Of a stretch of DNA of 64,000 nucleotides, positions 11,520 to 52,199 are shown one piece after another (position 1 is the stretch's first letter; each line of letters starts with the position of its first letter). Position numbers and translations under genes: made by a program. This DNA is from Bispira polyomma (lineage: Eukaryota): contig OZ287751.1 in assembly GCA_965649765.1 (NCBI GenBank), positions 70,680,001 through 70,744,000 of the forward strand, read 5' to 3'. A model generated the notes under the pieces. That model worked only from the letters and a program-made list of their open reading frames with translations, was not told the DNA's origin and ran no database searches.

Positions 11520-13105
11520 TTTTTATCCAATTGTAAAGTTTAATTTAACAGAATTTTGAGACTTTTTGTTTTCAATGCTAGCTTTACATTTTTCTTGGAC
11601 ATGGATAGATTCTCTAACATTTTCCTAGTAATTAACAAAATTTTCTTTTAAAGTCTAATTAGACTGTGTATGAATCTCCATACACTAAGTTATATATTCA
11701 AATTTATTTAAGTTGGTGATTTGAAGAATTTTTAATTCTGTACTTGTAATTTTCCTAAATTTCAAGAAGTTTTGATTAAAGAATTTGTGATTTTTTCAAA
11801 AATTTGAAGAAGTTTTGATTCAAGAAGTTATCATTTTCCTAAATTTAATGTGAATACGTTGTACAATTTAAGATACTAAATCAGTAATTTACAGAGTTAA
11901 GTAAAATCAAACAATACAACTAAAACACATGAATGTTAAATTTGAAATAAAACCAAATATAGTTACTTACATCTTCATATTTTTCAATGATCTTTTCAAG
12001 AACCTCAGGGTGATTGTTGATGGATCAGTCATATCCAATCAGTGTGTAAGTCATGCTTCATGGGTCTCAGAGACCTCAGGAGAATCAGGAGGTACCTTCC
12101 AAAATCGGTTGCAATAACTGCAGAAAATGCTCTGGTTGGTAGCAGACTGGACTACTGCAATTCACTGTATCGCAGCTTGACCAAAAAGGATCTAAAGAAA
12201 TTGCAATGCATCCAGAACTCATTGGCACGTCTGGTCAGTTGTTCTGCTCAGCTTTCAAATGCTTCACCGATTCTGAAGTCACTCCACTGGCTCCCTGTTA
12301 GGTATCGGTGTGTTTTTAAAACAGCTACAATAGTATATAAGTTTCTCGATTCAGGTTTGCCTAAATACTTTGAACCACACTTGAGTTACTACAAGTGCAA
12401 TGTCAACACCAGGAGAGCCACTCCCAAAAATAGATTCCTTCTTGTTCCAAAATATAAGTCCAAAGTACACAGGTCAAAGGTTCACTTTGATAAAAGTTTT
12501 GCAAATGATGCCCCTACCCTATGGAATAGTTTGCCTCAACACATTAGGACAGCTCCGTCCCTGTATTCCTTCCGGCGCAGTTTAAAGACCTATCTGTTCA
12601 ATGATGCATTCCCTCCATAGTCTCTTTCCCATTCTCGGTGGAGGCATTGATGACGACTTCCTTATGTCTATCACCTATGTTTTTCGACTCTGGCTGTGGT
12701 TTTTTTTGCGCTTTAGAATTTGTTACAACGAAAATAAGCACTAAAAAAGTCTGATATATTATTATATTATTATCTTGTCTTAGCCCATTGTTGTATCATA
12801 TCCACATTTGGTTGAGCTCTAAGTTATTGTCTTTCAACAGTAGTAAGATTAGCATAATTCTCTGCCATCTGGAAAGTAAATTGGTTATTATAGACTTTTC
12901 AGATACAAGTGGTCTTTTAGATTATTTTGCAAAACAAAAGTTGTTTATTTTATATAGTTTTAATAACAAAATATACACTTACTTTTGCAGTTTATCTTTG
13001 AAAGTAATCCTTTATTTCATGTATTCCCAAGCTGATACTAATCACAAATCCTTTGAAATGTTGGAAGTAAAATCAGTCATATGTATAATCTTGCTGTGTT
13101 CTAAT
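11520..13105 (-). pseudogene. Decayed intron-containing Polinton accessory gene interrupted by a LINE
   Basis: Minus-strand GTAAGT donors near 12982 and 11970, TTTCCAG acceptor near 12869; the reading frame continues across the LINE once it is removed; contains stops. Confidence 0.35.
11995..12771 (+). mobile_element. 5'-truncated LINE (CR1/L2 group) 3' end inserted in the Polinton
   Basis: ORF 12042-12620 with SRLDYCNSL, LQCIQNSLAR, LHWLPV, APTLWNSLP, LKTYLF; TAT-rich tail; ATCTT duplicated at 11990-11994 and 12772-12776. Confidence 0.92.
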
Positions 13106-14244: not shown

Positions 14245-15527
14245 ATGTATGTCTCTATGTTTTTTCTGTTGTTGCTAATTGCAAAAGTTTGGAGTAATGA
14301 CTGCTTCAAAGATGACAAATGTTTGTGTTTTGAAAGGCAAATCAATTGCTTGAACATTTTTGGGGAACCTGATGTTAGTATGGTTCATCCAGAGAAGTTG
14401 TTATACTTCTTTATTACTAATTCCTTTGTAACAAAATTGGATTTCCTGGATAAATTCCAGAATTTGGAGTTATTCTCGGGTGACCAGACAGTTAATATTA
14501 ACTGTAGTCTTGTTCATAAAAAACAATCTCAAACGAAAGTTAAACTGGAATTAAGTAGATGTGCAGGTTGGTTTTTACAAAAAGTTCTTCCACAACCGTT
14601 GAAGTTCCTAGAGGAAGCTTCAGTATGGGTATTCCGTTTACTTCACAGTTTTATGAATAGAATATCGGAACTATTCGGATATCCGAAATTCGGTTAACCG
14701 CACATGTTCGGATAACCAAATTTGGGATAACCGAAAAATGTTCGGATAACCGAATTTCGGATAACCGAAAATGTTTGAATAAATGTGTTTCAATAAAAGC
14801 AGGTAAAGATTATGAAGATAACTGTTTGTGTTTAGAAAACCAAAGCACTCTAGAACCGTCAAAAACAACTGAGATGACCACTTCTGTCTTTACTTTGATA
14901 ACAGATAGCTCTACAAAAAGTTCTTCCACACCCGTTGAAGTTCCTAAAGGAAGCTTCAGTATAGGTATTCTGTTTAGTTTATAGTTTTACGAATAGAACA
15001 TTGGAACTGTCCAGTTAACCAAACATTTTATTAGGTTAAGCCCTTTGAAGTTCCTAAAAGAAGCCTTAGTATATGTATTTTTCATAGTTTTGTGAATAGA
15101 ATATCGGTGTTTGAATGTTTGACTGACCCAAAATGTTTTGATGTAAAAATTAATTTTGAAATTTGAAGATTGATGTAAGATTTTGGAGTTCTGTTAAACA
15201 GAAATAATCAAAATGTTCGAATAAACAAAACGTTCAGATAACCGAAAATGTTTGGATAACCAAAAATGTTCAAATTTTTTTAAGATTCAAACTTTTATGG
15301 TAAGAGCTTGGAATGATATTTTACATATAACAGTCAATATATCTCTTTTGACAGATAAATGCGTTATAGCTTTAACAACTGGATTGGCTTTCGTGGTATT
15401 CCTTACTAGTGTTGGAGTTAGTTTGTGTCTCTTCAAATGCTACCACAAAAGACAGCGAAATAGGAGGGAGACATCACCAATTTTCTTGGAAAATATGAGT
15501 TACGGAAGTCATGAAACTGATTTATAG
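14245..15527 (+). CDS. Spliced type I membrane protein B (signal peptide, LRRNT-like cap, Ser/Thr stalk, TM, tail ending ETDL); exons 14245-14566, 14836-14964, 15355-15527
   Basis: MFFLLLLIAKVWS signal, C....C.C.....C cap, LDFLDKFQNLELF LRR-like segment; both introns are GT..AG phase 1 and keep frame; TM IALTTGLAFVVFLTSVGVSLCLF followed by KRQRNRR. Confidence 0.75.
14660..14780. repeat. Short tandem, partly palindromic repeat (TTCGGATAACCGAA-like) in an intron of membrane gene B; further copies near 15210-15270
   Basis: Six or so degenerate units of TTCGGATAACCGAA. Confidence 0.8.
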
Positions 15528-15803: not shown

Positions 15804-17743
15804 TTACATTTTGTTTAAAAAGTCTATGAGGTTTTGTACAAAAACATCTATTTCATCTTTTTGCACTACAAATCCTTTTCCTGGGAGTGGGTAAATCCCT
15901 CCTTTGAACAACTTCTCAAACCTCCTGAATGATATGTACGAGTGGTTGGTATCTACACAGGCTTTAAGACCGTCATCAGCTATATCAACCCTAAGGTTCA
16001 CACAACGGTCTTGTTTGGCTCTATTCACTGCTTGTACAAGCACATCCAAATTCCTGAGTATAGCCTCACAGTGCTCAGGATACAGCCTTAGTCCACTGTC
16101 TCTGTACTCTGTCCTGATTGTGTATTCACCATCACCTGTGTCTTTTTTCATGGTGAAGTGATCATTGATGATTTCCACAAACGCATAACTGTAACAAAAA
16201 AATATAATAAAATTGATTAGTTGCTAATAAAACACAAAATTTTATATACTTACTTCTTTTCTCCTGTATTAGGTGTAACTATAATTAGAATAAGACCAAA
16301 ATATAAAGATTATTTTCAATTAAAAACTCAATTATAAACTTAAACACTATTAATATAGTTTTATTTCCACGAATTACAAGATTTTATCTTCCTACATGAT
16401 TATGAATATACTCACACAAAAATTTATGAATTACTTATTTCATCATTAAAGAAAATTAGACATAATTAAGATGTTAAATATACTCACTTTGTGGCTGTGT
16501 TGTTGTTTGTTGCTGTTGTTGTTGTTCTACTTGTAGACATCTGTTTCTGTAGAGGTTTATTGACAACACTGCATGCTGGAGGTTGGATGGACTGAGCCAT
16601 TGTGGCTAAAGCTTGATAGCCAGTTACCACATTGGAGGGACCAGATTCGAGAATAATTTTGGGTTTTCGGGGTTTTGAGGGTTGTTTAGACTTTTGGGGA
16701 TTTTGGGGAGCTTTAAGAGGTGTGTAGGGTTCCACGCACTCTAGGTCCGAATCCTCTTTAGCATCTACCTGCTCGCTGGGAACTTCATCACTCATGTCGT
16801 CATTGAACAAGGAACTGTAAAAAAGAAAGATATAAATATTATAAATATGTTAAACTACAGTACTAAGAACCTTTCAAAACAATCTAAACTATGTATCACC
16901 TATTAAAGTTTAGAATTTGTTTTCTAATTAGGCTATAATTCTAACAAAGACAGCTCTTTACTTTTCTAACGTTATAACTTCGAAAAAGTGTTTCCAAATG
17001 CGCTTTTTCCATCTGAATCAAAAACTTAATTTAGTGACAAAGTTATTTTTCTTTAAATTTATGTAAAAATTATTAAATAATATATATTCCTAGAGTTTCC
17101 ACAGCAAGAAGCTCTAAAACTCAAATTTAACTACTTATTTATAATTAGAAATTCTTTCACAGTTTAATTAGTGGGTTTCCAATCAAACTCATGGTGAAAA
17201 TATTGATATGTTGTATTTTATAGTGTTGTTAGTAGTTATATTTACACATATTTCTACTAAATAACAAAATGGGTATAATGTTATTTACCTGTCGGCTTTC
17301 TTTGGCTTCCTAGTCAATAACTCTTTCTCTTCTGTTCCTGCTTTTCTCTTCCTGAATAAATATATACAAATCTTGTTTAGTTTTTAAAATATAATCAGTC
17401 TTGATTGTCTTTTATACATATTAGTTTTTTCCATGAGTCGACAAAATAAATAAAATCTTGAGACTATAAGAACCTTTTATTCAAATTTACTTTTCCAAGA
17501 TTCTTTATAAGAAGTTTGACTTATATTACGAAAACAGAAAAAAACAAACAAAAATCTTAAGTATTTATCAATTTGATTGGTGTAAATAAATTATAATTGT
17601 GTAGTATATAAATATATATATTATAGTTATGTCGCATTTTCATAAAGTTTCAAGTATTAAATTTCTAATTATAATATTACAATAATTAATTTTATTAAAT
17701 AAATTTAAACAAAATAACTTTGTCATACTTACATTGAAGCCAT
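15804..17743 (-). CDS. Four-exon gene: NLS-like basic N-terminus, disordered linker, C-terminal PC4/p15-like ssDNA-binding region; exons 17743-17733, 17351-17289, 16814-16488, 16188-15804
   Basis: Three GT-AG introns (GTAAGT, GTAAAT, GTGAGT donors), all phase 2, give one open frame; C-terminal VDT...YISFRRF......P..GKGFVV...E......NL resembles PC4. Confidence 0.7.
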
Positions 17744-22176: not shown

Positions 22177-23154
22177 CTAGTAGGTAGTAGTGTTTTCAAG
22201 AGCAGCTTTGAAGGCCAGCGCCACCTGGGGAGAGGTATTATGGTCTTGGTTGATATATTTCCACACACAGTCCGACGTCCAGGTGCCATGGGCTTGGATA
22301 TCCTGTAACGGGACCTTTTGGTTGAATGCATATGTGGCACCTGAGCGTCGGAAGGTGTGGAAGGTTATATTTTCTGCCTGGCAGTGTACCCGTGTGAGTA
22401 TGGTTTGCAGATTTCTTCTGACGCTTGTGTCTGTAAGTGGGGTCCAGAGTGCATTGTGTTTAAATTGGACTAATGGTGAGTTGCTGGATCCAGGTGTTCC
22501 TAACTGTTGTGACTGGGCAGAGGGAGGAAAATGGTAGTAATGGTAATTTGATGATTCTGATTGTATTTTTTGACTGGAGTGTTTTCGACCATTTAACAAT
22601 GATGTGCATGCCAGGAGGTGCAAATAGGATGTCACCTCTGGAAAGCTGCTGAAGGGGTGTGTAGCCGGCTACACTATGTGGAACCAGATTGGATATCCTA
22701 AGGAATAAAAAGAAAGCGACCAGGTAAAGAGCCTTGAATACTTGGCCCATGTACATTGTGTCAGCAGTATTAATTATTTGTGTGAGAAGTGGTATGTCTA
22801 TGATGTTTTTTAGCTTGGCCCTAAAAGGCTTGTTAAGGGCAATTGCTTTTTGATAATACTTTAGTCGTGGGCCACTGAAGCAAGAGGTATTGAGCCCAAA
22901 CCGAGCAATTTTTGCTCTAATGGCAGAAAGGTAATTTGCAATGGATGAACTAGAGACATTGCTTGTAACTAATACTTCTTAAAAGGAGAGGATAACTAAT
23001 GGAGTAATTGCTGTGAGGCTGATGTTTGTGAAACAGGTAAAGGCCAGGAAAACCCTGAACATATTGGTATACGCCTTTTGTGTGAAGGGTCTAAAGGCTT
23101 GGTGTGTCCTGGAGGCTGCCTTGGCAGCCATGGATGCCAGTTGAGGAGGTAAAC
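22177..23154 (-). pseudogene. Tyrosine recombinase, copy 1 (frameshifted)
   Basis: FLRISNL, KWSKT, FHTFRRSGAT, HGTWTSDCVWKY. Confidence 0.92.
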
Positions 23155-23161
23155 CTACAAT

Positions 23162-25649
23162 TTAAATTGACCAATTAATATTCATGATATCATCATTCAC
23201 ATTTATCCATTGTGGTTCTGCTATGTATTCTCTTAGCCTGTTAGGGCTATCAGTGTACATATGCCATCTGGAGAGGTCAGCCACTGTATTATTTTTTCCT
23301 AAAATATGAATTGTGCTAAAACTGATATCTGCCATTGCCGTTTCCATATAGATGTTTCTGGCCATGGCCCCCAGTGTATGATCTTTTGTTCTGCCTGAGT
23401 TTAATATGGTAACAACAGCTTCATTGTCACAGTGTATTAATAGTCGCTTGTTGCCCCACTGCTTTTTCCAGAGCCTGACTGCCAATAGTATGTTTAGCAT
23501 CTCTAGGTGAGTAATGTGGTAGCTTTCATAGCCCTTGGGGAGTTGTTTTTTTATATACTTGATTGTTACAGCGGCCCACTAGACCTTCTAAACAGGCATC
23601 TAGTTCTATACAATCCGTGATTGGTGTATGATCGAAAAATGCTTTACCATTAAACGAAGGGAGAAATTCACAGAACCAGTTAAGGTCTTGGTGAAATTTA
23701 ACCCCTAGGTTGATTGTGTGTACAGTGTGGGCCGCACGTAATACTTCCAACATTCTGTTGAGAAAAACCCTTGATACTTTGACACATCCAGATATATAGA
23801 GCAATTTGCCTAGAAGTGATTGTAACTCGCGTTTTTTGCAGTTGCTTTTTGCTTTCCAGGATTTACACATTTTTTTGGGGGGAACTGAAACTGTAAAATT
23901 TTCCATATCAATTAGGACACCTAGACAGACTACCTGAGTGCTTGGGCGCACTATTTTCTTTTTGCTAATTTCGAAACCTAGCTCATGGAGAGTATCATGA
24001 AGGAGATCAAAAGAACGTTGTATTTTGGACGGAACACCAAAACCTATGATATCGTCAATATAATTTATGACGTCACAGTCGTGACGTTTCATTATAAAGC
24101 GAACTGCGTCACTGAGAGGCTGGAATATCGCACTACCATGGCGATACCCGAAGGGTAGGCATGTATCGACAAAGTATTGCTCATGTTTGAGACCTAGCAG
24201 ATTGTAGTCTGCAGGGTTGATTTTTACGTGCCTGAAGGCCCTGCTTATGTCTGTTTTGTAGAGCAAGGACCCCCGGCCAAGCTGACGTTTTTTTTGCGTA
24301 ATAGTGTCCACTGTTGGGAGTGTTAACACAAATGGTGTATCTAGGTATTTATCTCTGGCCACGGCCGCGTTTACTGAGTGACCTTGAGGGAAACTCAAAT
24401 CTATTATGACCCTTCTATGGGGTGCGCCTGGCTTTTCACGGGTCATGAACAGTGATACATGTAGATTATCACAAGGGGAGCTGAGTATGGACCCAACATG
24501 GCCCCGAATCTTGATTCTTCTTCCAGATAGGCGTTAATGTCATTAGGGAAATCCCTAGCTGATTTATGGTTTTCTTCCAGGTGGACTAAGGGATTATTTT
24601 TGTCGACGTCCAGCGGGAAGCCATATTTTATGATATTTCAATTGGGTGTCCCAATAGCCCTGTAATTAAAAATCCCATTTATTAGCTTTAAGCTGGGATT
24701 CTACCTGAATTTCTTCCCTCATGAAGTTGGGGATTTTAGAGTTTTTAATTTTTTCGTGCATAGTGAATACTGGCTCAGAACTGATATTTTTGAGATCAAA
24801 CACGGGGACTGTTAAGCCTCCCAAAGGAATAAAGTCAAATTTATCAGGCGTCTGCCTGTCCCAATTTTGGAAACACTTGTTTTGTTTGGCTAATTTTATA
24901 AGTTCCTTGCTTTTAGGCTTTGCATGTAACTCTAAGTCATATTTGTCAATGTTTTGTGTTTCACACTGATCCCCTTGCTGAATAGGTTTTGTAGACTTGT
25001 TATACCTTGCCTTTGTCATTTGGGTTGTGCCATTAGTGTGTTTAACTTGGGTGTCACTTGAGGGATTACTTTGTTCCTCTTTGTGTGTTTCCCCATCCCC
25101 CTCAGTGAGTGTTAGTAGGGGGGCAAATCTATTGTGGTCTCGACTGATGTTATTACCCCAATTAGTGCCAACACCTCCCAATTGTGGGAGTTGGAAAGTG
25201 CGACTTTCTGAACTATGGGTTTTGGTAAACAACCTTGAGGACTTTGTATTACAAAGGGAGGGGGGGAAGGGTGTTTTGTTGACACTTCGTTCTCTCTGGT
25301 GGGAGCTTGTTAAGCCCCCAATTGTATGAACTGGTGGCACGTCAATTGCTGAAATAATCGTATGTACATTTGATTCCACACTTTTTGGTTTGAATTTTTG
25401 ACGACCATACATTTTATGTCTTTTTACACTGCTCTGCAGATTCTTAACATTTATGTGGGGTGAGCGATAGTTGGAGGTACTGGGTGGTTTGTTTTCTCCT
25501 TTAAATGTTTTACCTTTAACTGAATTGACACCCTTTAAGACCGCTTGAGCATAGCTTTTTATTTTTATTTTAAACCAGTCCGCTCTCCAATTTTTGCTCT
25601 CGTTATTTACACACATGTTACTTTTGACTACTCTACTGGCCCTATACAT
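23162..25649 (-). pseudogene. pol: Pol (long disordered N-terminal extension, RT, RNase H), copy 1
   Basis: RVIIDLS, DISRAFRH, LPFG, YIDD, ELDACL, HCDNEAVV, NTVADLSR. Confidence 0.92.
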
Positions 25650-25677
25650 GACATTTGTGTTAACACTTTCTATGTTT

Positions 25678-26400
25678 TTAAACTTTTAACATTACATTTA
25701 CTGTCAGGACCTGAAAATCTACTTTTGGGCACTGCAAAACTGCAGTGCCCTTTTCGTTTTTTGCACTGCTGTTTTTTCTACAGTCTTTAGCCGAGTGTGG
25801 GAAAGAGCGACCTGTAGTGAAGCAATTGGCACACACATGTGTGTATAATTGCCCTTTGTTTTCATGGTCTCCTTTTTGGGGACAAGTGCCCGTCTGAAAA
25901 AATTTCTCACTACTATTCTTGGTTGAGCCCACGGACCCAGTTTGACCCACTAAAATTTTCTGGGCATGTGCCCTTCTAACACGATCAATTTTTGCAGTAT
26001 CTGCCCAAGTTATTTTTCCCTCTTCCATTTTACATGTTAATACGGCATGACTTCCCTTAGCTGCTGACCAAGAGAAATCGTGAGAATCCTCCATTAGCTC
26101 TGACATGTATTCGAGCATTTGGTTTTTTGTTTCTAAATTTGCTTCTTCTTTAATCATGGCACTAAAACCTGCGACCCATTGGGCCATTGATATTGAGTCA
26201 TATGACAAGTGAGACTTATTGTTACCCCCTAAAATACCTGCTTTTTAACCCAAATAGTATCTGAACCGCCATGTTGTGAGCGGAACGTACCTGATTCGTT
26301 AACTTGTTGTACTACCTGAGTTTGTACTGTTCACCATGGAAATACTGTTCGTTTCCTTTATCAGGACTTTGCATTTATCATTTATAGGCTTTTGGTGATT
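25678..26400 (-). pseudogene. gag: Gag-like protein with C-terminal Cys/His knuckle, copy 1 (5' part deleted or decayed)
   Basis: YDSISMAQWVAGF, LMEDSHDFSW, IDRVRRAHAQ and C.....H......H.C..C motifs shared with copy 2. Confidence 0.8.
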
Positions 26401-27149: not shown

Positions 27150-28130
27150 GTGGCAGTAATTTGATACTAGTGTTTAACATGACACATAGGCTCAAGTAGT
27201 TCTGGGTAAAAAATCCATCTATTTATTTGATGATTCTGTAAACAAAATGCTCATTATTTAGATGTCACTGTAACAAATACAATCTATCCATCTATATGGT
27301 ACTACAATGTCACCAGTTCCAGTGAGTCTTGTAATCTGTGAAAAACAACAGTTTTCTGTGAATCTAATAAACAAAGTAGTGTTCAAAGTGCCATATGAGC
27401 CCAAGTAAAAATTGTTTATTTTTTTGCATGTCACAGTAATAATTAAAATTTGTCTATGTAAATAGGTAATATAATATAATGTCTTGGGAAAAATTCTAGA
27501 GGGATTTTAGATCTGTAAAAAAACTGTTAAATCAATGATTAGGCTAGATAAATCTATTTGTTTGATTAATTATTTACATGGATTTACATAAAATCTATAT
27601 ATCTATAAGATAGTATTGTTAATTATTTACACATCACAAAATGTGCAATACATAGTCTCTGGACAGGTTCTAGTGAGCTTATTTTGTATCTGTAAAAATA
27701 AAATAAGTCAGAGTGACACAGACAGTTGCCACCTTTGATCCCACACCACATGAGTACATTAAATAATTGAGGTAATACCATCATCCAACCTACAACTCTT
27801 TTGGGATCTTTAAATGTCAGTATGTCAGTCTTTATGTCTCTGACTAGCACATTACATTCAGACACAACTGGTGGGTTTTTTGGGGGGCACTTAATTACTC
27901 TGTGATGAATGAATGTTACATGCTTTATTTATACATGTGTCTTAATGCANNNNNNNNNNNNNNNNNNNNNNNNNNNNNNNNNNNNNNNNNNNNNNNNNNN
28001 NNNNNNNNNNNNNNNNNNNNNNNNNNNNNNNNNNNNNNNNNNNNNNNNNNNNNNNNNNNNNNNNNNNNNNNNNNNNNNNNNNNNNNNNNNNNNNNAATTG
28101 ACTTTTTGGGGTTACAGCCAATGGGAAAGA
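27150..28130. repeat. Dispersed non-coding repeat A; inverted copies at about 52335-53170, 61780-62290 and 62900-63290
   Basis: Shared blocks such as GGGATCTTTAAATGTCAGTATGTCAGTCTT in all copies. Confidence 0.88.
27950..28095. other. Assembly gap (N run)
   Basis: Run of n bases. Confidence 1.
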
Positions 28131-28625: not shown

Positions 28626-28729
28626 ATCATTATATTTTAAGAATTCATACAATAAGAGTGTGTAACAACTGGGGCTTTACTACCCTATTTTATGTTTTCA
28701 TACCTCTTTTAATTTGTTAATGTGTGATC

Positions 28730-29733
28730 ATGCCTTCTAAAAAGGAGTTTCATTGTAGTAGTTGCTCAGGAAAGCATGAACGATCTGTAGGAAAGAGATG
28801 TCGATTCAATCTTGATGCCAGTGTCGCCGATGATGTGCCCACCGTTGGTCTTGCTTCTGAGGTAATTACTGATTCCGTCTCTGAACAAATTCTACAGCAA
28901 TTACGGTCACTCAACAAGAAAATGGAAAGTATGGACCAACTTGTGCAGGTGACAGAGGCGGCGCTGTGCACACCCAGCGCCCATAAGGCATGTAGTACTT
29001 CTAATGTTAATACTAATGTTAGCAGCAGTGTTGCCAGTAATGTAGTCAATTCAGTAGAGGCGGTAGTACCTTCCTTAGATTTCCTACGATCAAACGAAAG
29101 TTTACAGTCCCAAGTCGACCAACGACTGCTGCAGTTACAGCAGCTTAATGAGCTCACTAGAGGTAAACTCAAATCCCAAAGAGGTGGTACTGAGGCCCCT
29201 ATTAAAAGAAGTGTGGACTGGCCACAAAATTTTGTATTGTCGGGGGTTAAGAAGGTACGTCCTACATATGACGACCTGTCTCTAGTGCAGTTTACTTCTG
29301 GGTTTATAAGGTGTGTACAAGAGCAAAAGGTTCCCAAGGTCAGGAAAGCCATGTTAGAGTATTTGGCCAATTTAATGGATGACGCCCACGATTTCTCGTG
29401 GGATGCAGCTAAGGCATCTCATGCTATCCTGTTAACAAATATGGAACTAGACCACCTTAAGTGGACTGACACGGACAAGGTTGACCGTATACGCCGGGCT
29501 CATGCCCAACGCCGTGTTTCTCATAGTTCAAATGGAGCCAGTGCTTCCAAGGCCAGTTCTGGTAGTAAAATTAAATCAAAAACAAAAACCTCAGGGGTAA
29601 ACTGTCGGAGGGTAACTGTAAGTTCAATGCTAGCCACCGAACCTCAGGACAGTGGTTTAAGCACTGCTGTGAAACATGTGAGGGTCCTCACCAGACTAAG
29701 TTGTGTACAAAAAAGGGTATAGCAAAAAAATAG
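28730..29733 (+). pseudogene. gag: Gag-like protein, copy 2 (frameshift near the C-terminus)
   Basis: N-terminal C..C...H......C, KSQRGG, WPQNFV, YDDLSLVQF, LMDDAHDFSW, VDRIRRAHAQ. Confidence 0.85.
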
Positions 29734-29809
29734 GGAGCCACTACAGTAATGCAGTGGATAAGCCAGTGTTTCAAAGACTGTATATAACTAAGAGTTCAAA
29801 GATTTTAAA

Positions 29810-32060
29810 TTGTGTGATAAAATGTATTTTAAACAGTATATATGTTTTAACAGAAATGTGAAAAGGTCTTATAAAGACATGGTTGTGAAAGGGAAACTTT
29901 GTGTTCCCAGAGGTCTCGAGAAAGGCTCAGTGGTGGGCGAAATTGGGGGGAACAGTGTAGTAAAAAATTGGTTGGTTACAAACACAAAAAGAATCTGCAC
30001 TAAAGTGAGGGACGTTACATTTGGCAAGGGGTTTAACAACAAGCATGTAAACAAAACTGTGCAGTCCCCCAAACAGTCCGTCAGCAAGCAAAAAACTCAC
30101 CAGAACAAAAGAAATAGTATTGATTGTCAACGGGGTGTCAAAAACAAATCAATGAGTGTAGAGAAACCTCTCGGTGTGGATACTTCATTGTCCCCCTCCA
30201 AGGGTTTTTTTGCCTCGAGTGAAAACAATGGCAGTGGGTGTCAGGTTTTCCAATTACCCCTCCACAATAGATTTGCTGTGTTAAACACACCCGACGAGGA
30301 CGTGGTGGGTGTTGCTGACACGGGCTATTGTGTGGGGGCTCCCCCACGTGTAAAGACTTGTACAAAAACACCTAAACAAACAGAGTTAAATAATTCTGAT
30401 GACAAGTATGCATTGGCAGTTCAAAGATCTTCTGATGAAAGATGACGTCTTAAGGATGCCAACCAATGTGACACTTATAAATTGTGGGATATACAAAACA
30501 GTGGGAAGTTTGGCTTTATCCCCCTCGAGTCTTGAGGAAAACCTATAATAGACAAATCAAATAACCTACTACCAATAGATGTGTTTACACTTCACAAGCA
30601 TCTTAAACTGGATGGGCGCCCTAATTATAGTGGACTTCAGGTCCCTGTGGCTTCTCAACTTAATGCCTCCATGTGGGCTGAGTATTTGAGGGGCTACTGG
30701 GACTGGAAACTCCCCCTGCTTGTAAAATATAGGTTTCCACTAGATTGTGTGAATGATCACGAGTTTAAGTCAGAACTTAATCACACCTCAGCTATTCAGT
30801 ATCCGACTCACGTAAAACAATATTTAGAAGAAGAATGTCAGTTGGGTGCCATGTACGGGCCCTTTGAGGTGCCACCAATTTTAAAATTGCATACCTCCCC
30901 CTTCATGACCAGGGAAAAATCAAGCTCAGTTAACCGTCGAGTGATCATTGATCTCAGCTGGCCTAAAGACCATTCAGTTAATGCAGCTGTGTGTCCCACT
31001 TCTTATTTAAACAAAGAATTCATGCTAACTTACCCGTCAATAGACACTATAACTTCACAAGTTATTAAAATGGGCAAAGGTTCACTGATTTTTAAAGCTG
31101 ACATCAGTTGCGTCTTTAGGCATGTGCCTATGGATCCAAAAGAACTGAACTTGTTGGGGTTGTATTGGGATGGTTACAATGTGGACGGTTCGCTGCCCTT
31201 CGGGTACAAGCATGGCTCGGCCATATTCCAAAGGTTATCGGATGGTAGCAGATATATAATGCACAAGGAAGGCTACCATATTACGAATTATATAGACGAC
31301 CTCCTTTGTAGCTTGATTCCGTCGAAAATATACCATACCTATCGCCGGCTTCAAGCCCTATTGGCTGAACTAGGTTTGACCTTGAGTGACAAAAAATTGG
31401 TCCCTCCAGTGACCCGGGTAACTTGTCTCGGTATCGTTATAGACAAGGTCGATTTCACCACCTCCATCCCAGATGAAAAATTACAAAATATCCAAGCCAT
31501 GTGCGACAATTTGGCTGGCAAAAAATACTGCACAAAAAGGGAACTCCAGTGTCTACTGGGTTCGCTCCTTTATGTATCTAAATGTGTCAAGTACTCAAGA
31601 TTTTTCTTGAATAGAATGCTTCACCTCCTCAGAAGTAATCATAAGAGCAAACATTTCAAAATTACTCCGGATTTCTATGAAGATTTGACGTGGTTCAGAA
31701 CTTTTTTTGAAACAATTCAATGGTGTCTCTTTTTTCCACCATAATCCCACAACTGCCCTCATAGAACTGGACGCTTGTCTGACAGGTATGGGGGAGGGGT
31801 CTATGGACAAAATGTGTACACTTTGCCTATACCTGCTCGATTACAGCATCAAAATATCGCTTCTTTGGAGATGTTAAACATTTTTGTGGCAATGAAATTA
31901 TGGGGTGACCCGTGGCAGGGTCAGAAGGTCCTCATAAAATGCGACAATCAAGCTGTGGTCAGTGTCCTTACCAATGGCAGGACATAGTGTCCTTGCCCTG
32001 TATTCACGTAACATATTTATGCTAGCTAGCCATTTTGATGTAGAACTAAAAGTTATTCAC
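29810..32060 (+). pseudogene. pol: Pol (N-terminal extension, RT, truncated RNase H), copy 2
   Basis: SPFMTREK, RVIIDLSWP, LPFG, YIDDLL, ELDACL, KCDNQAVV. Confidence 0.92.
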
Positions 32061-32993
32061 AGTAGGTCCACTGCTAGATCTTACAGAGCTATGTACAGAG
32101 TGTATCTGGCTTATGCTGCCTTCATGGATCGGCCTATAAATCAGGTGACTGTGTCTGATCTTCTATGTTTTTTGGAAGTTTTACAATTTTACTCAAATGT
32201 CAAACCTGCACACATGGCTAACTATTTGTCTGATATCAGAGCCGAATCCATTGTGCATAATGTTCAAATACAGGCTTTCAGTGACCATCGTCTTGCCTAT
32301 TACCAAAAGGCTGTGCAAATGGCTGCCCCTCTCAATGTTAAACTAAAAAAGGTAATAGATATCCCCACTCTGCAAAACATTGTAACAGTTTTGAATACAA
32401 CTTACATGGGGCTTGTTTTTAATGCAGTCTATCTGCTCAGTTATTTTTCATTTCTCAGGCTATCCAATCGTGTACCACATTCAGCTGCTCAATTCTCTGC
32501 TCTAAAGCATTTAGCTAGGGCAGATGTCATGACCCATCCGGATAAAGCCGTTCTGTTGATTAAGTGGTCAAAAACAATGCAAAACAACAAGCAGATCAAA
32601 CTTTTGACCATCCCTCATTTACCGGGCTCACCATTATGCCCTGTGGGGTCACTGGAGGCCATTCTGGCCCTCACTCCATCAGGGCCTAACTCACCGTTGT
32701 TTCAAATTAAAGTCAATCACAAATGGGTGCTTCTAACTGACACCAGAGTGCGTCTCCACCTTAAAGATGTATTACTTAGACTAAAGTTGGAAAACTCTGT
32801 GCTTACCTTCCACGCTTTCCGTTGTTCAGGTGCCACTTTTGCTTTTAATCATAACGTTAGCATACAAAATATACAAAATCATGGCACCTGGACTTCGGAC
32901 TGCGTGTGGAGGTATGTCACAGATACTGTTGATGCTGGCCACCAAGTGGCTGATTCCTTTAGGCGTCATCTATCTGCATCTGTCATTTCCTAA
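32061..32993 (+). pseudogene. Tyrosine recombinase, copy 2 (N-terminus deleted)
   Basis: FLRLSN, KWSKT, FHAFRCSGAT, HGTWTSDCVWRY. Confidence 0.9.
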
Positions 32994-47742: not shown

Positions 47743-48719
47743 TTAGAGTGAGTGGAGAATGATGGATGCAAATGTGGCAGGGACAATAGCCACTGCCTGT
47801 GAGGTAGACTGTAAGTGTGACCACACGGCGGAACTTCGCCATAATCCGTGAGCCATGATGTTTTGGAGGGAGACATTATTATTGAATGCTAGTGTAGCTC
47901 CTGATCTACGGAAAGTATGAAATCCATGTATAGTATGGTCAATCCCTATGTGCTGTAAAACTGTTCTAAGAGCTGCCCTAATGTGGGAGTCCACTAATGG
48001 GTGGAAAGGTGGTGTCCCTGTCACAAACAGTGGTGAAGTAGGTGAAAGTTTCCTAGCTTTTATGAGTTTGGAAAGTGCCAAAACTGGACATAAAAGAGGA
48101 GATTTTATGGTTGGCAGTTGTATGGCATGTGATTTGGTCCTATCTTGCATGTTTTTAGCCCATTTGATTATTATGTGGACTCCAGGTGGTCCAAATATGA
48201 GGTCCTGCAGTAGCAGGTGCCTTGATGGGTCAAACTGTTTTCTAGAGTGAGGGGCTATATTTGACATGCGCAAGAACCCATAAAATGCCACCAGGAATAT
48301 TGCTCTGTACATTATAGGATCGTTAAGAATGTCACATGCCTGTGAAATCTTGAAAATTTGTTTTAAATCAAAGACTCCTTTTGGGGCTGGCCTAAAAGCA
48401 GAATTGTGAATCAAACTGCGTGTATACAGTGAGATGGAATTATGTTCCATAACTTTGTAATTTAGGTTGTATTTCAAGCACATGAATTTCAAAGCAGCCA
48501 AATAATTGTTGACCACTTTGGGAGAGATATTGTTTTGGGTTAAATACTCCAAGAAAGCTAACACAGAGTGAACACTGATGTCCTGTATGTGTACATATTG
48601 TAGGAACGCTAGAAAAGTTCTGAACTGATTGGAATAAGCTGCAGTAGTAGCAGGTCTTAATGCAGAGTCAATCCTATCAATGGCAGCCAGTCCCACAGAG
48701 TCTGAAGAGGTAGTGGCAC
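47743..48719 (-). CDS. Tyrosine recombinase, copy 3 (open frame; catalytic Tyr position reads His)
   Basis: FLRMSNI, KWAKN, FHTFRRSGAT, HGLWRSSAVWSH. Confidence 0.9.
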
Positions 48720-48725
48720 CTGAAA

Positions 48726-50752
48726 TTATACATTAAGATCTAAATTAAAGTAGGATATTGGGACTAGTTTGCGTTTGTATTGGCTCAGCAATTGTAACAT
48801 CTGTTCCTTAGGTGGGTTATCTGAATATATTCTTGACAAAGCATCTGCTATTACATTAGTCTTACCCTTAATATGTTGAATATCTATAGTAATGTCGTGT
48901 AATGACGCTATAAGCCAAATGTTTCTTATGCATGCTGCTAGGAAGGAATCCTTAGTCTTGCCGGTCTGTACGACTAGAACTACGGCCATGTTATCGCAGT
49001 GAAAAGTGACCCTTTGATGAGCCCAATCCTTAGCCCAAATCTTTAAAGGTATCACTATATTAATCATTTCTAATTGTGTGATTGGAAGTTTTTGTTGGTA
49101 TACATTATATACTGGGGTATAATATACCTGATCACCCCAAATTCCCCCAAGTCCAGTCAAGCAAGCATCTAAGTGCATTTCTTTGTCTGAATCTGTAGGT
49201 AATGGGTTTATGAATGTAATGCCATTGTAGTCATGCAAAAATTTCATAAACCAGTCTAGGTTATGTTTTATGTTATCTGTCATCTTAAAATGCTTTGCGC
49301 CTGGGGATGCCCTAAAGACAGCTAAAAGTCTGTTTACAAAGCACCTAGCAGGTTTTACGCACTTGTGAATGTATAACAGTTTACCCAAAATTGACTGAAA
49401 ACTTGAACGTGAAAATCAGGATTTTGAACGTGCTTCTATACAACTTTGAAATATCTCTGCAATTTTTTCTTTGGTAATGCTAATTGTGCCTTCGTTAATA
49501 TCAATATCGATGCCCAGGTAAGTCACCCTCGTCGATGGGGAACATACCTTGTCTGGGTTCATGGGCAGATCGAGGTCATTCAGAAGGTCACATAAAGTTT
49601 AAATCCCGCTTCTGCCTTAGATTTGTGGCAGATGCAAACGTAATCGTCGATGTAGCAGTGCAACTCAAAACCAGCTTTTCGCATGTAGTCTGCTATTATA
49701 TCTGAGCATCTGTGAAATACTGCACTGCCGTGGGCCCAGCCGAACGCCATGGCAGCGTCAATGTAATACTTATCCTTATGCTGTATTCCAAGTTTTAACG
49801 CATCAACCGGATCAACTCTTAAGTTTTTAACCGTGCGAGCCACGTCTACCTAGCTACGTAAAGCCAAATTTTAAATACTGCACTATTATCTTATCAGAGT
49901 GATTTTGAGTGATTTTCTCCCAAACACTTATGTTCAGTTGAGATGTGATGGGAATACAGTTGCAGTTTCAATAAGACTTTTGACATTGTCTGTTTGTGCC
50001 GAACACCTGTCTGGTCCAATAAACTCAAAGTCATTCTGAGATAGCTTTATAAAACCTACGTCCTTAGAATTTTCAGAAATATCCTTAGCCTTACATTTTG
50101 AAGAAGAAGTGATTTCCATTTCAGGGCTGACCAGCCCGTCCATGTCATTTGTATTCGACATTCACACATGTGTAACACTTGTGTTAGTTGTGACAATATC
50201 TTGTGGCTTACCAGCGTGTGTGTTTTTTATCACACGACTGATGCCATCTTGATCAATGATTTTATCAATTATATCACACATGTAATCTGTGTAGTTACAC
50301 TTGTAATCCTTATAGCATGCCAGGTCTCTTTTATAACTATCATAATCCGTGTTTGCTTGTTTTTGTTGTAACTCGGTGTATTGATAGACATTGCTTCTGA
50401 TAAGTACCAACATTGTTACTGTTACAGTACTCGACACCTCGAGTGGTATACCCGGTATACCAATTAGCCGAATGTATCTCTTTTCATTACCCCTGTTATT
50501 TACATAGCAAAAACCTGACATACTATTTAGTGGACCAAAGTTCAGGTGTACCACCTGATAACCCATTGTGCCCTGTTGCACACAATAGGTGTAATTAATA
50601 TTGGAAACCACACATGAAACTTTAGTATAACTCTCATATATCAGAGCATTATGGTCATACAAGTCATTCTGTTCATATACATGACATACAGGTGATTGGG
50701 TTGTACTTTCCCAATAGCTATCACTTTTTCTATTAATATTATGATTTACCAT
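48726..50752 (-). pseudogene. pol: Pol remnants (extension, partial RT, RNase H), copy 3
   Basis: MAFGWAHGS, YIDDYV, HLDACL, HCDNMAVV, ADALSR; N-terminal RT missing between about 49860 and 49930. Confidence 0.88.
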
Positions 50753-50790
50753 TTTCTGATTGTCATTTTCACAGACTACTTTATCATCAC

Positions 50791-51822
50791 TTATATGTGT
50801 TTAGCAGTGGTTACAAATGTGCCTGTACTGCCCGTGGTCACTGTCGTTCGAACAGGATCCGTTATTGTAGAACTTACACACGGTTTTGGGCTTCTGTTGA
50901 TTCTGAAGACTTGCGAAATCTGTGGGTTCACTAGTGCCAACTGGGATGTACTTAGCCCATTGAGTGCCCACTGTGTCGAATTCGACCAATCTAGTCGTCC
51001 TTCCTCGAGTTCCTGCATGTTTGCCCCCCAGGCAGCTCGTACTGCTGGCCAGGGTAGGGACGCCGCGTCTCTAAACGTGTAAATCATCTGATGGATCATG
51101 TCTCTCATCATAGTCGGGTCTGATACCTGAGCTACGTTCGCTAATTGCCCAGCCGCCCATTGGGGAAGCGTTAACTCATCAAAATTTGGCCTTTTCTTAG
51201 CTGTGCCCCCCAGCCAGCCCTCATTCGCCCATCTCGACTGGGGGTCAGCGACACAAACGTCGGTTGTATTATATCTGCCTGATTTATGTCTAAGTGAGGT
51301 CTTACCTTGTGACAAGTCTTGTCTCAATTGCGTATCATAGGCGGCTAGTCGCTGGTTCACAGCAGCAGTCACATCAGGTATGGTTTTTAAGACGTCCAGT
51401 CTCGGTACTATCCCGTTACGCTGGTAGTCGTTGTGTGATCCATGTTGCGAGGCCGCTCGGCCGTATAATGAGTAGGGCAGTGTTGGTCGCAGATTCTGTG
51501 GTAGTATCGGGGCTGTATGTTGCTCATGTTGTCGTAAATCGAGCATGGTATCGTTTCTAGCCGGGGACGTCAATGGAGTAGAGTTTGACGCTCCTTTCAT
51601 CTCAACTCTGTCCAACCGTTTATTAATGTCTGCATTAGCAGATTCGAGGCGTTTGAGAATACCCATTACCTCTTGCATGTCATTGTTACCATTACTGGTT
51701 GGTGATATGTCCTCCTGCAGATTCCTAACGATCGGGTCGGCAGTCTTCTTTTTCCTCGTTATAGTTGACGGCTTTTTTCTAGCCTGTGGAGCACTACCGG
51801 GAACTACCTTACTTTTCCCCAT
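50791..51822 (-). pseudogene. gag: Gag-like protein, copy 3; CCCH-type finger in a shifted frame
   Basis: KSGRY, FDELTLPQW, DAASLPWPAVR; alternative frame CKFYNNGSCSNDSDHGQYRHICNHC. Confidence 0.8.
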
Positions 51823-52199
51823 ACTCTCTGTGTTGTAGTTTATAGTATAGTATATTTGTAAAGTTATCTCAACGTAAAAAAATAAAATCCTAAAATAATT
51901 TTCACAAATACAAAATCACAATGTTAACTCCTTGAGATCTTGTACAAAATGGTGCTCAACTTGGGGCAGCATATTCAATTTCAGAGAGGGGGTGATTGGT
52001 GATTGGTTATTGATTCTATGTGGGATGGACAGAAAGTGGAACAAGAAAAATGCTTTGAAAAAGGGGTTGCTAGTGGGAGGGTGAACTGACACAGTAGGCC
52101 CCTAAAGTGGTCATGCAAGTCAAACCCTTCAGAACCCTTGACTGTGTATAGTTGAAACTGAAAGCACATATTTGTTTGAATAAATTAAGAAACCCCTTA

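What the first reader, a model, noticed from the sequence alone, without database searches (positions are those of the whole stretch)
14245..15527. Second, apparently paralogous three-exon LRR-cap membrane protein with mucin-like stalk and C-terminal ETDL
Seen: three separate ORFs join through two phase-1 GT-AG introns into signal peptide, Cys cap, FQNLELF segment (cf. FPNLQSV in protein A), S/T stalk, TM and tail. The final ETDL fits the class I PDZ-binding consensus (S/T-x-hydrophobic), a motif used by several animal viruses. Inference: a small family of Polinton surface proteins engaging host scaffolds.
Basis: partly seen in the sequence, partly recalled or inferred. Interest (0 to 1): 0.75.

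Follow-up and report, generated by a model that had tools for sequence, protein, structure and literature searches.

The report
Spliced mini-LRR surface proteins of Polintons
Virus-like Polinton elements in this animal genome carry, in well over a hundred copies, a conserved gene whose splice signals and domains predict a small leucine-rich-repeat surface glycoprotein with host-sorting motifs in its tail, which likely lets the element modify the surface of the cells it is active in.

Summary
Three exons (14245-14566, 14836-14964, 15355-15527) join in frame through phase-1 GT-AG introns into a signal peptide, Cys-capped domain, S/T stalk, membrane helix and a tail ending ETDL. The gene lies in a decayed 21-kb Polinton (236-bp terminal repeats, 6-bp target duplication). 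At least 150 copies occur in the genome at 32-100% identity. Splice donors are kept in 57 of 59 copies examined and dN/dS between lineages is 0.07-0.26. Proteins A and B share a predicted minimal capped LRR fold and five invariant cysteines. There are two corrections. "Three exons" is specific to this copy, which lacks an extra mucin exon found in 17 of the 20 closest matches. The best-conserved tail element is P-I-[FY]-x-x-N-x-x-Y, not ETDL, although a class I PDZ-type end persists in 10 of 11 lineages. No RNA data were available, and no binding was tested. Best reading: an adenovirus-E3-like surface glycoprotein, likely sorted by host FERM/PTB and PDZ adaptors. My literature searches did not find it described for Polintons.

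The parts
14245..14566 (+). Gene B exon 1: signal peptide plus about 90-aa capped mini-LRR ectodomain (mature part from 14296)
   Evidence: donor conserved
14567..14835 (+). Intron 1 of this copy; shorter than in sister copies (about 520 bp including a mucin exon absent, junction near 14578-14584); holds a duplicate of the 3' part of exon 2 (14576-14687)
14836..14964 (+). Gene B S/T-rich stalk exon (phase 1-1, 19 of 42 residues S/T)
15355..15527 (+). Gene B last exon: transmembrane helix (about 15363-15434), basic stop-transfer stretch, tail
15477..15503 (+). P-I-F-L-E-N-M-S-Y motif (contains NxxY); P, I, N, Y invariant in 11 of 11 lineage representatives
15513..15527 (+). C-terminal ETDL plus stop, class I PDZ-type motif
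10120..10670 (+). Gene A exon 1: signal peptide, homologous mini-LRR domain (10183-10416), acidic linker, TM; phase-2 donor at 10671
10788..11505 (+). Further exon-like pieces of the gene A tail (from 10788, and about 11316-11505); internal junctions not resolved
12023..12772 (+). LINE-like reverse-transcriptase 3' fragment inserted between A and B (label recalled); contigs of other copies skip it
   Evidence: joint 12023-12772 and very high depth
18675..18910 (.). Right terminal inverted repeat (236 bp, 98.3% identical to the left one about 2.2 kb upstream of the window), followed by target duplication CATACA
724..1455 (+). rve-type integrase
   Evidence: PF00665 33.6 bits, cut-off 32.6
2614..3507 (+). 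Major capsid protein, in three frames (broken)
   Evidence: Atlas 0.95-0.96 to Sputnik_MCP_1st and DJR-like clusters for the first piece
4583..9912 (-). Protein-primed DNA polymerase B, in five pieces (broken)
   Evidence: PF03175 E 0.002, below cut-off
15804..16223 (-). Conserved convergent neighbour (PC4-like label recalled; no Pfam match)

Best explanation
Gene B is a conserved Polinton accessory gene with intact splice signals that is predicted to encode a type I membrane glycoprotein, which likely sits on the surface of cells where the element is active and likely uses its tail motifs to be held and recycled there by host adaptors. Shown: the element context, exon layout, conserved splice sites, purifying selection and tail motifs. 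Predicted: host splicing, signal-peptide entry into the ER, a disulfide-capped one-to-two-repeat LRR head, and an O-glycosylated stalk whose length varies by gain and loss of symmetric phase-1 exons. Inferred: NxxY binds a FERM/PTB adaptor such as SNX17, and [DE]-[ST]-[DE]-hydrophobic binds a class I PDZ protein (SNX27, Dlg/Scribble/MAGI or NHERF type; which one cannot be told). Inferred: the raised LRR head binds a host receptor or immune ligand and dampens recognition or killing of the infected cell, as adenovirus E3 glycoproteins do. The same element also carries an IAP-type BIR gene. My odds: real spliced membrane-protein gene about 0.93; tail engages such adaptors about 0.65; host-modulating role on the cell surface about 0.5.
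For: 150 of 150 scored candidates match exon 1 and exon 3 in the own genome. Order polB< A> B> neighbour< in 40 fetched copies: A in 39, polB in 37, neighbour in 31. 104 of 109 fetched loci hold another Polinton gene within the 10-kb stretch. Donors 57 of 59; acceptors 33 of 44 against 0 and 1 in control phases. dN/dS 0.08-0.19 (exon 1; 15 unsaturated of 28 pairs) and 0.07-0.26 (last exon; 13 of 28). Distances of B track A (Spearman 0.88) and polB (0.73) over 32 loci. AlphaFold pLDDT 91.8. Fold searches return almost only LRR proteins. A 37-sequence profile hits a variable lymphocyte receptor at E 4e-5 and Slit2 at E 7.5e-4. Atlas neighbours are all LRR clusters. Tail P, I, N, Y and an upstream R are invariant in 11 of 11 lineages; [ST]-x-hydrophobic ends in 10 of 11 lineages and 61 of 69 copies against at most 8.5% of 1013 ORF ends, with synonymous changes in these codons. 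Far lineages end DSEF, DSDW, ETDI; an unnamed intronless homologue ends ATAV. Motif definitions: passages of PMC9006456, PMC11589680, PMC9987997. BIR domain PF00653 E 6e-18 in the same element.
Against: No transcript evidence. This copy sits in a broken element and has a non-consensus GTTGGT donor (shared by 10 of 59 copies), so it may be silent. No Pfam family matches B. Foldseek has no hit at E<=0.001 and best VIA Z is 7.3, which the tool calls possibly only a common arrangement. Tail exceptions: ENTL/EDTL in one lineage and EEEF in 5 of 10 distant tails, which also lack NxxY. W in DSDW is an unusual PDZ terminus (recalled). Copies are related, so counts are not independent. A multi-copy subfamily keeps A and the tail exon but has no B ectodomain match (9 of 9 loci L062-L070). 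One within-family pN/pS was 2.0, on very few changes. Nothing here identifies a ligand or an immune role.
Confidence: 0.55

Rival explanations
1. B (with A) is an attachment or egress protein of a membrane-wrapped particle: the tail would concentrate it at budding or vesicle sites and the LRR head would bind the next cell.
For: Near-universal retention beside core genes. Head-on-stalk layout resembles attachment proteins (recalled). Nematode Polintons encode a proposed fusogen and may be enveloped (passages of 10.1101/2023.08.22.554363).
Against: No fusogen-like fold was returned. The tail motifs are of the host recycling and scaffold type. The genes lie apart from, and are separated by polB from, the capsid genes in this lineage.
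Confidence: 0.2
2. B is a superinfection-exclusion or anti-competitor factor that would mask or remove the receptor used by related Polintons or larger DNA viruses.
For: Many coexisting, diverged lineages each keep their own version. A mucin stalk and sorting motifs suit steric shielding or receptor down-regulation (inference).
Against: Many lineages have invaded the same genome. The ectodomain is under purifying, not diversifying, selection.
Confidence: 0.12
3. The protein is real but the terminal residues are not a PDZ ligand; the acidic, hydrophobic-ended tail would bind another sorting factor (for example Retriever directly), or only the PIY/NxxY part matters.
For: EEEF and EDTL ends break class I while keeping an acidic-hydrophobic end. 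Retriever binds acidic tails ending in L (PMC11589680 passages).
Against: The Retriever motif needs I/L/V six residues from the end, and B lineages have S or Y there. S/T at -2 is kept in 10 of 11 lineages.
Confidence: 0.1
4. A captured host gene riding passively as cargo, or a chance exon-like arrangement.
For: Introns and an LRR fold suggest host origin. 5 of 109 loci showed no Polinton gene in the fetched stretch.
Against: Purifying selection between lineages, co-divergence with polB, phase-specific splice sites. 29 of 30 most distant homologues fetched lie beside Polinton genes.
Confidence: 0.03

Closest known systems
Adenovirus E3 membrane glycoproteins (E3/49K = CR1-beta, CR1-gamma, RID alpha/beta)
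   Same: Paralogous type I glycoproteins of a non-enveloped related virus, with a folded head, a disordered stalk and a short tail with sorting motifs, acting on host immunity (PMC13437282 passages).
   Different: E3 CR1 heads are Ig-like and B's is LRR-like; no sequence homology shown; function here untested.
Platelet GPIb-beta / GPIX (single-LRR proteins) and GPIb-alpha (LRR on a mucin stalk)
   Same: Smallest capped-LRR membrane proteins. Top VIA row for A (3rfe, Z 5.7, rmsd 3.2, 78 aligned); Z 6.0 (8wfs_X) and 5.4 (3rfe) for B. Architecture per PMC8976409 passages.
   Different: 11-17% identity, tied with other LRR rows; vertebrate haemostasis proteins; B's C-cap has only two Cys.
LRRNT-capped extracellular LRR proteins (variable lymphocyte receptors, Slit, LRIM1, TrkC)
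   Same: N-cap C-x-C-x6-C plus LRR sequence match (E 4e-5); best structural rows LRIM1 Z 7.3 and TrkC Z 7.2.
   Different: Those have many repeats; here one to two; no specific orthologue.
Known Polinton/adintovirus accessory genes (PLA2X, GasderminX, Cupiennin; nematode fusogen)
   Same: Membrane-related accessory genes in animal Polintons (PMC8502044 passages).
   Different: Those are virion-module membrane-active proteins or fusogens; no LRR or spliced surface protein appeared in the passages read.
Viral PDZ-binding motifs (HPV E6 ETQL/ETQV, influenza NS1 ESEV, HTLV-1 Tax)
   Same: Class I motif with acidic -3 (PMC9987997 passages).
   Different: Those three are not type I surface proteins (recalled); here the motif is paired with NxxY on a membrane protein tail.

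Membership tests
Polinton/Maverick | Terminal inverted repeats and 6-bp target duplication | tested here: met
   236 bp at 98.3%, AGTAGT...ACTACT ends, CATACA on both sides; about 21.1 kb
Polinton/Maverick | Retroviral-type integrase | tested here: met
   PF00665 above cut-off
Polinton/Maverick | Double jelly-roll major capsid protein | tested here: met
   Atlas 0.95-0.96 to clusters where 23% and 10% of members carry Sputnik_MCP_1st and DJR-like_dom; gene broken here
Polinton/Maverick | Protein-primed polB, packaging ATPase, adenain protease | tested here: inconclusive
   PF03175 E 0.002 below cut-off; ATPase and protease labels rest on recalled motifs, no library match
Extracellular LRR proteins | LRRNT cysteine cap | tested here: met
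Extracellular LRR proteins | LRR repeat sequence and parallel-strand fold | tested here: met
   profile E 4e-5; model pLDDT 92; VIA Z 7.3, modest; single B sequences match no Pfam family
Extracellular LRR proteins | Canonical four-Cys LRRCT cap (definition recalled) | tested here: not met
   only two invariant C-terminal Cys
GPIb-beta/GPIX | Specific sequence relationship | tested here: inconclusive
   11-17% identity in structural rows tied with other LRR proteins; not among the 60 rows shown
GPIb-beta/GPIX | Heteromer of two single-LRR subunits | not tested
Class I PDZ-binding motif | [ST]-x-hydrophobic at the free C-terminus, conserved | tested here: met
   10 of 11 lineages, 61 of 69 copies
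Class I PDZ-binding motif | Physical binding to a PDZ domain | not testable with these tools
   needs pull-down or holdup assay
SNX17 cargo (NPxY/NxxY) | NxxY/F in the cytoplasmic tail | tested here: met
   N and Y invariant in 11 of 11 B lineages; absent in the distant EEEF/DSEF group
[quoted passage not shown] | [ILV]-x-[DEQN]-x-x-L | tested here: not met
   S or Y at the first position in 11 of 11 (definition)
Adenovirus E3 CR1 family | Ig-like CR1 domain | tested here: not met
   model is LRR-like; CR1 fold

The most novel reading that the evidence does not exclude
Animal Polintons carry their own adenovirus-E3-like host-modulation cassette: a spliced family of minimal LRR receptors (A, B and a third type), perhaps an A-B heteromer in the manner of GPIb-beta/GPIX, raised on exon-shuffled mucin stalks and routed by SNX17- and PDZ-type signals. 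Together with an IAP gene this would mean these 'transposons' run a somatic infection in which the host cell must be shielded from immunity.
Probability: 0.3. Interest if true: 0.8.

Novelty: new variant of a known kind. Interest (0 to 1): 0.6.

Why it matters
Whether and how animal Polintons live as viruses is largely open. A conserved, selected surface glycoprotein with host-sorting motifs makes sense only if the element is expressed in cells whose surface matters. It gives concrete handles: splice junctions as expression markers, a tail peptide for adaptor pull-downs and a 90-residue head for ligand screens. It also suggests that intron-containing accessory genes are missed when Polintons are annotated by ORF calling, and it adds a very small capped-LRR domain family with no Pfam model.

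Tried and rejected
RNA support: no RNA holder listed; the three runs laid cover introns and exons alike and showed no joint at the predicted junctions among the rows shown, so they read as DNA and say nothing on splicing. Word-index protein searches with the B alignment found nothing, longer or near length; the broad alignment returned only two already known unnamed proteins. Scans of viral contigs and metagenome contigs confirmed no relative, so the context of the external homologues is unknown. P0016 (1461 aa, 8 short repeats) among the 23 hits was set aside as a spurious repeat match. Direct Retriever binding was rejected on motif grounds. CD34/podocalyxin-type sialomucins (recalled: mucin stalk plus PDZ end) were considered; their recalled domain order differs and nothing was tested. 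Three look-ups of earlier findings returned nothing. Literature searches for prior description: Polinton + leucine-rich repeat + transmembrane gave 2 unrelated papers; Maverick + Polinton + introns + spliced gave 13, none on this by title or abstract; adintovirus + membrane protein gave 2; two searches were broader. The host was not identified.

Full report
Observation. Exons 14245-14566, 14836-14964 and 15355-15527 total 624 nt, both introns are GT-AG and phase 1, and each exon is open. They give a signal-like N-terminus, a six-Cys domain of about 90 aa, a stalk with 19 S/T in 42 residues, a hydrophobic helix, a basic stretch and ETDL-stop.

Context. The window comes from a 1.035-Gb, 75-contig genome, an animal by inference. 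The gene lies in a Polinton of about 21.1 kb: 236-bp inverted repeats at 98.3% identity, AGTAGT/ACTACT ends and a CATACA duplication. It carries an rve integrase, a broken capsid gene that resembles double jelly-roll clusters, polB in five pieces, a BIR-domain ORF just upstream of the window and a LINE-like insertion at 12023-12772 that contigs of other copies skip. This copy is recent by its repeats but decayed.

A family, not a one-off. Exon 1, exon 3 and protein A each gave 150 or 151 matches in the own genome, the scoring limit, at 32-100%, 38-100% and 28-100% identity. I fetched 40 copies spread over this range. A lay upstream in 39, polB upstream in 37 and the convergent neighbour downstream in 31. 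Over all 109 ten-kb loci fetched, 104 held another Polinton gene and 87 a core gene; five showed none within the stretch. Using a distant external homologue as query exposed further lineages; 29 of 30 fetched lay beside Polinton genes, including a third type placed next to the ATPase gene. Pairwise distances of B follow A (0.88) and polB (0.73) over 32 loci and the three trees recover the same lineage clusters; kin share history, so this shows joint inheritance and not co-function. Outside this genome, a profile search of 1.84 billion representatives found 23 proteins at E<=0.001, all unnamed where looked up (10 of 23), one set aside as spurious. Most end shortly after the last Cys, as if read into the same intron (inference). 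One, P0018, is an intronless 214-aa signal-LRR-stalk-TM protein ending ATAV.

Splicing and selection. A phase-1 GT follows the ectodomain in 57 of 59 copies, mostly GTAAG/GTAAT/GTATG/GTGAG. A phase-1 acceptor precedes the last exon in 33 of 44 under a strict filter, against 0 and 1 of 44 in control phases; one search shows the AG in place in six of the 11 misses, with in-frame stops or a weak pyrimidine tract. dN/dS between lineages is 0.08-0.19 for the ectodomain (15 of 28 pairs unsaturated) and 0.07-0.26 for the last exon (13 of 28). Within families pN/pS was 0.21, 0.33, 0.14 and 2.03, the last on near-identical copies. Intron 1 diverges faster than exon 1 at depth (0.38-0.52 against 0.62-0.63) but hardly at all between close lineages (0.81 against 0.82). 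No RNA run was available, so splicing is strongly predicted, not shown.

Correction to 'three exons'. Sister copies have a further S/T-rich exon of about 70-95 codons after exon 1. It was found in 17 of the 20 best-matching loci (one of the three without it is this copy) and nowhere in the window. The window lacks about 520 bp there. Stalk exons are symmetric phase 1-1 and vary in number across copies, so stalk length is variable. One subfamily keeps A and the tail exon but shows no B ectodomain (L062-L070).

Fold and paralogy. AlphaFold with 30 homologues gave pLDDT 91.8 and pTM 0.82 for B (two of five models above 85), and 78 and 0.68 for A (one of five confident). Foldseek found nothing at E<=0.001 but its lists are dominated by LRR proteins. 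VIA-align ranks LRIM1 (Z 7.3, rmsd 2.5, 80 aligned) and TrkC (7.2) first for B, with a GPIb-IX chain at 6.0, and the GPIb ectodomain 3rfe (5.7) first for A. These Z values are modest. Sequence support: a 37-member profile hits a variable lymphocyte receptor at E 4e-5 and Slit2 at 7.5e-4, and the Atlas neighbours are LRR clusters at 0.89-0.92. A and B align over 68 columns (probability 51%, E 1.5e-4), and five Cys are invariant across A, B, the third type and external homologues. A's first intron lies in its tail and is phase 2, and its last piece ends SLFQK, so only the head is shared.

The tail. Among 11 lineage representatives, R(-7), P, I, N and Y of P-I-[FY]-[LM]-x-N-x-x-Y are invariant, while most membrane-helix columns reach 4-8 of 11. 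Ends are ETDL, ETDF, SSEL, DSEL, DSEV and EDTL: 10 of 11 fit [ST]-x-hydrophobic, 61 of 69 copies, against at most 8.5% of 1013 ORF ends, a background that includes these tails. Synonymous variation in these codons points to protein-level constraint. Farther lineages end EEEF (5 of 10), DSEF/ESEF (3 of 10), DSDW (13 of 13) and ETDI (1). Passages of PMC9006456 and PMC11589680 state that SNX27 binds class I motifs and SNX17 binds NPxY/NxxY for recycling to the surface, and define a Retriever motif that these tails do not fit. PMC9987997 passages give the class definitions and viral examples.

Mechanism. Most likely the gene is spliced by the host, the protein enters the secretory pathway, its capped LRR head is lifted on a glycosylated stalk, and the two tail motifs keep it at or return it to the surface, where it binds a host receptor or ligand. 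The nearest functional analogue is the adenovirus E3 set of glycoproteins (PMC13437282 passages); it works like them by inference but is not a member, since their heads are Ig-like. Rivals are an attachment or egress protein of a wrapped particle (0.2), superinfection exclusion (0.12), a non-PDZ reading of the tail (0.1) and passive cargo (0.03). Whether A and B bind each other is open.

Novelty. I read term-matched passages only, no full texts or supplements, of PMC8502044, PMC11071296, PMC11131425, 10.1101/2023.08.22.554363, 10.1101/2025.02.07.637071, PMC8976409 and the four papers above. They list PLA2X, GasderminX, Cupiennin, a nematode fusogen and candidate envelope glycoproteins, but no spliced LRR surface protein. 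Searches showed none by title or abstract start. Supplementary gene maps of the adintovirus papers and Repbase entries, which I did not see, may already hold this gene under an arbitrary name. Verdict: real, a new variant of viral host-modulating surface glycoproteins, interest 0.6.

Noticed in passing
L061:8260-8715 (+), just upstream of the window inside the left end of the element: BIR (inhibitor of apoptosis) domain ORF, PF00653 E 6e-18; BIR matches also in L089 and L097.
   Followed up: partly
L108-L112, L117, L119, L122, L123, L126, L127, L132-L135: A third mini-LRR gene type lying divergently beside the ATPase gene in other Polinton lineages, most tails ending NDRYYxRDSDW, one ending ETDI.
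   Followed up: partly
L082, L083, L084; paired hits such as G000:C11:22650765 and 22664740: Inverted (palindromic) duplications of element halves in a subfamily that lacks the B ectodomain; probably non-autonomous derivatives.
   Followed up: no
L089 (G000:C2:7891500-7901400): Three tandem repeats about 2.2 kb apart carrying the B tail exon, two with the ectodomain exon in view.
   Followed up: no
window 4583-5779 (-): The last polB piece runs into a NADAR-like domain (PF08719 E 5e-6, below cut-off; TIGR02464 E 1e-5).
   Followed up: no
window 14671-14771 and 15210-15270: Short tandem 33-34 bp repeats rich in TTCGGATAACCGAA inside the introns of gene B, recurring in sister copies.
   Followed up: no
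window 22177-26244, 28721-32993, 47743-51915: Three decayed elements with reverse-transcriptase-like and tyrosine-recombinase-like ORFs, DIRS/Ngaro-type by recalled motifs.
   Followed up: no
P0018 (cluster of 3 unnamed ENA proteins, contigs up to 5760 bp): Intronless full-length homologue ending ATAV; could belong to a free virus or another host's element; context could not be fetched.
   Followed up: partly
window 27950-28095: Run of N, unrelated to the finding.
   Followed up: no
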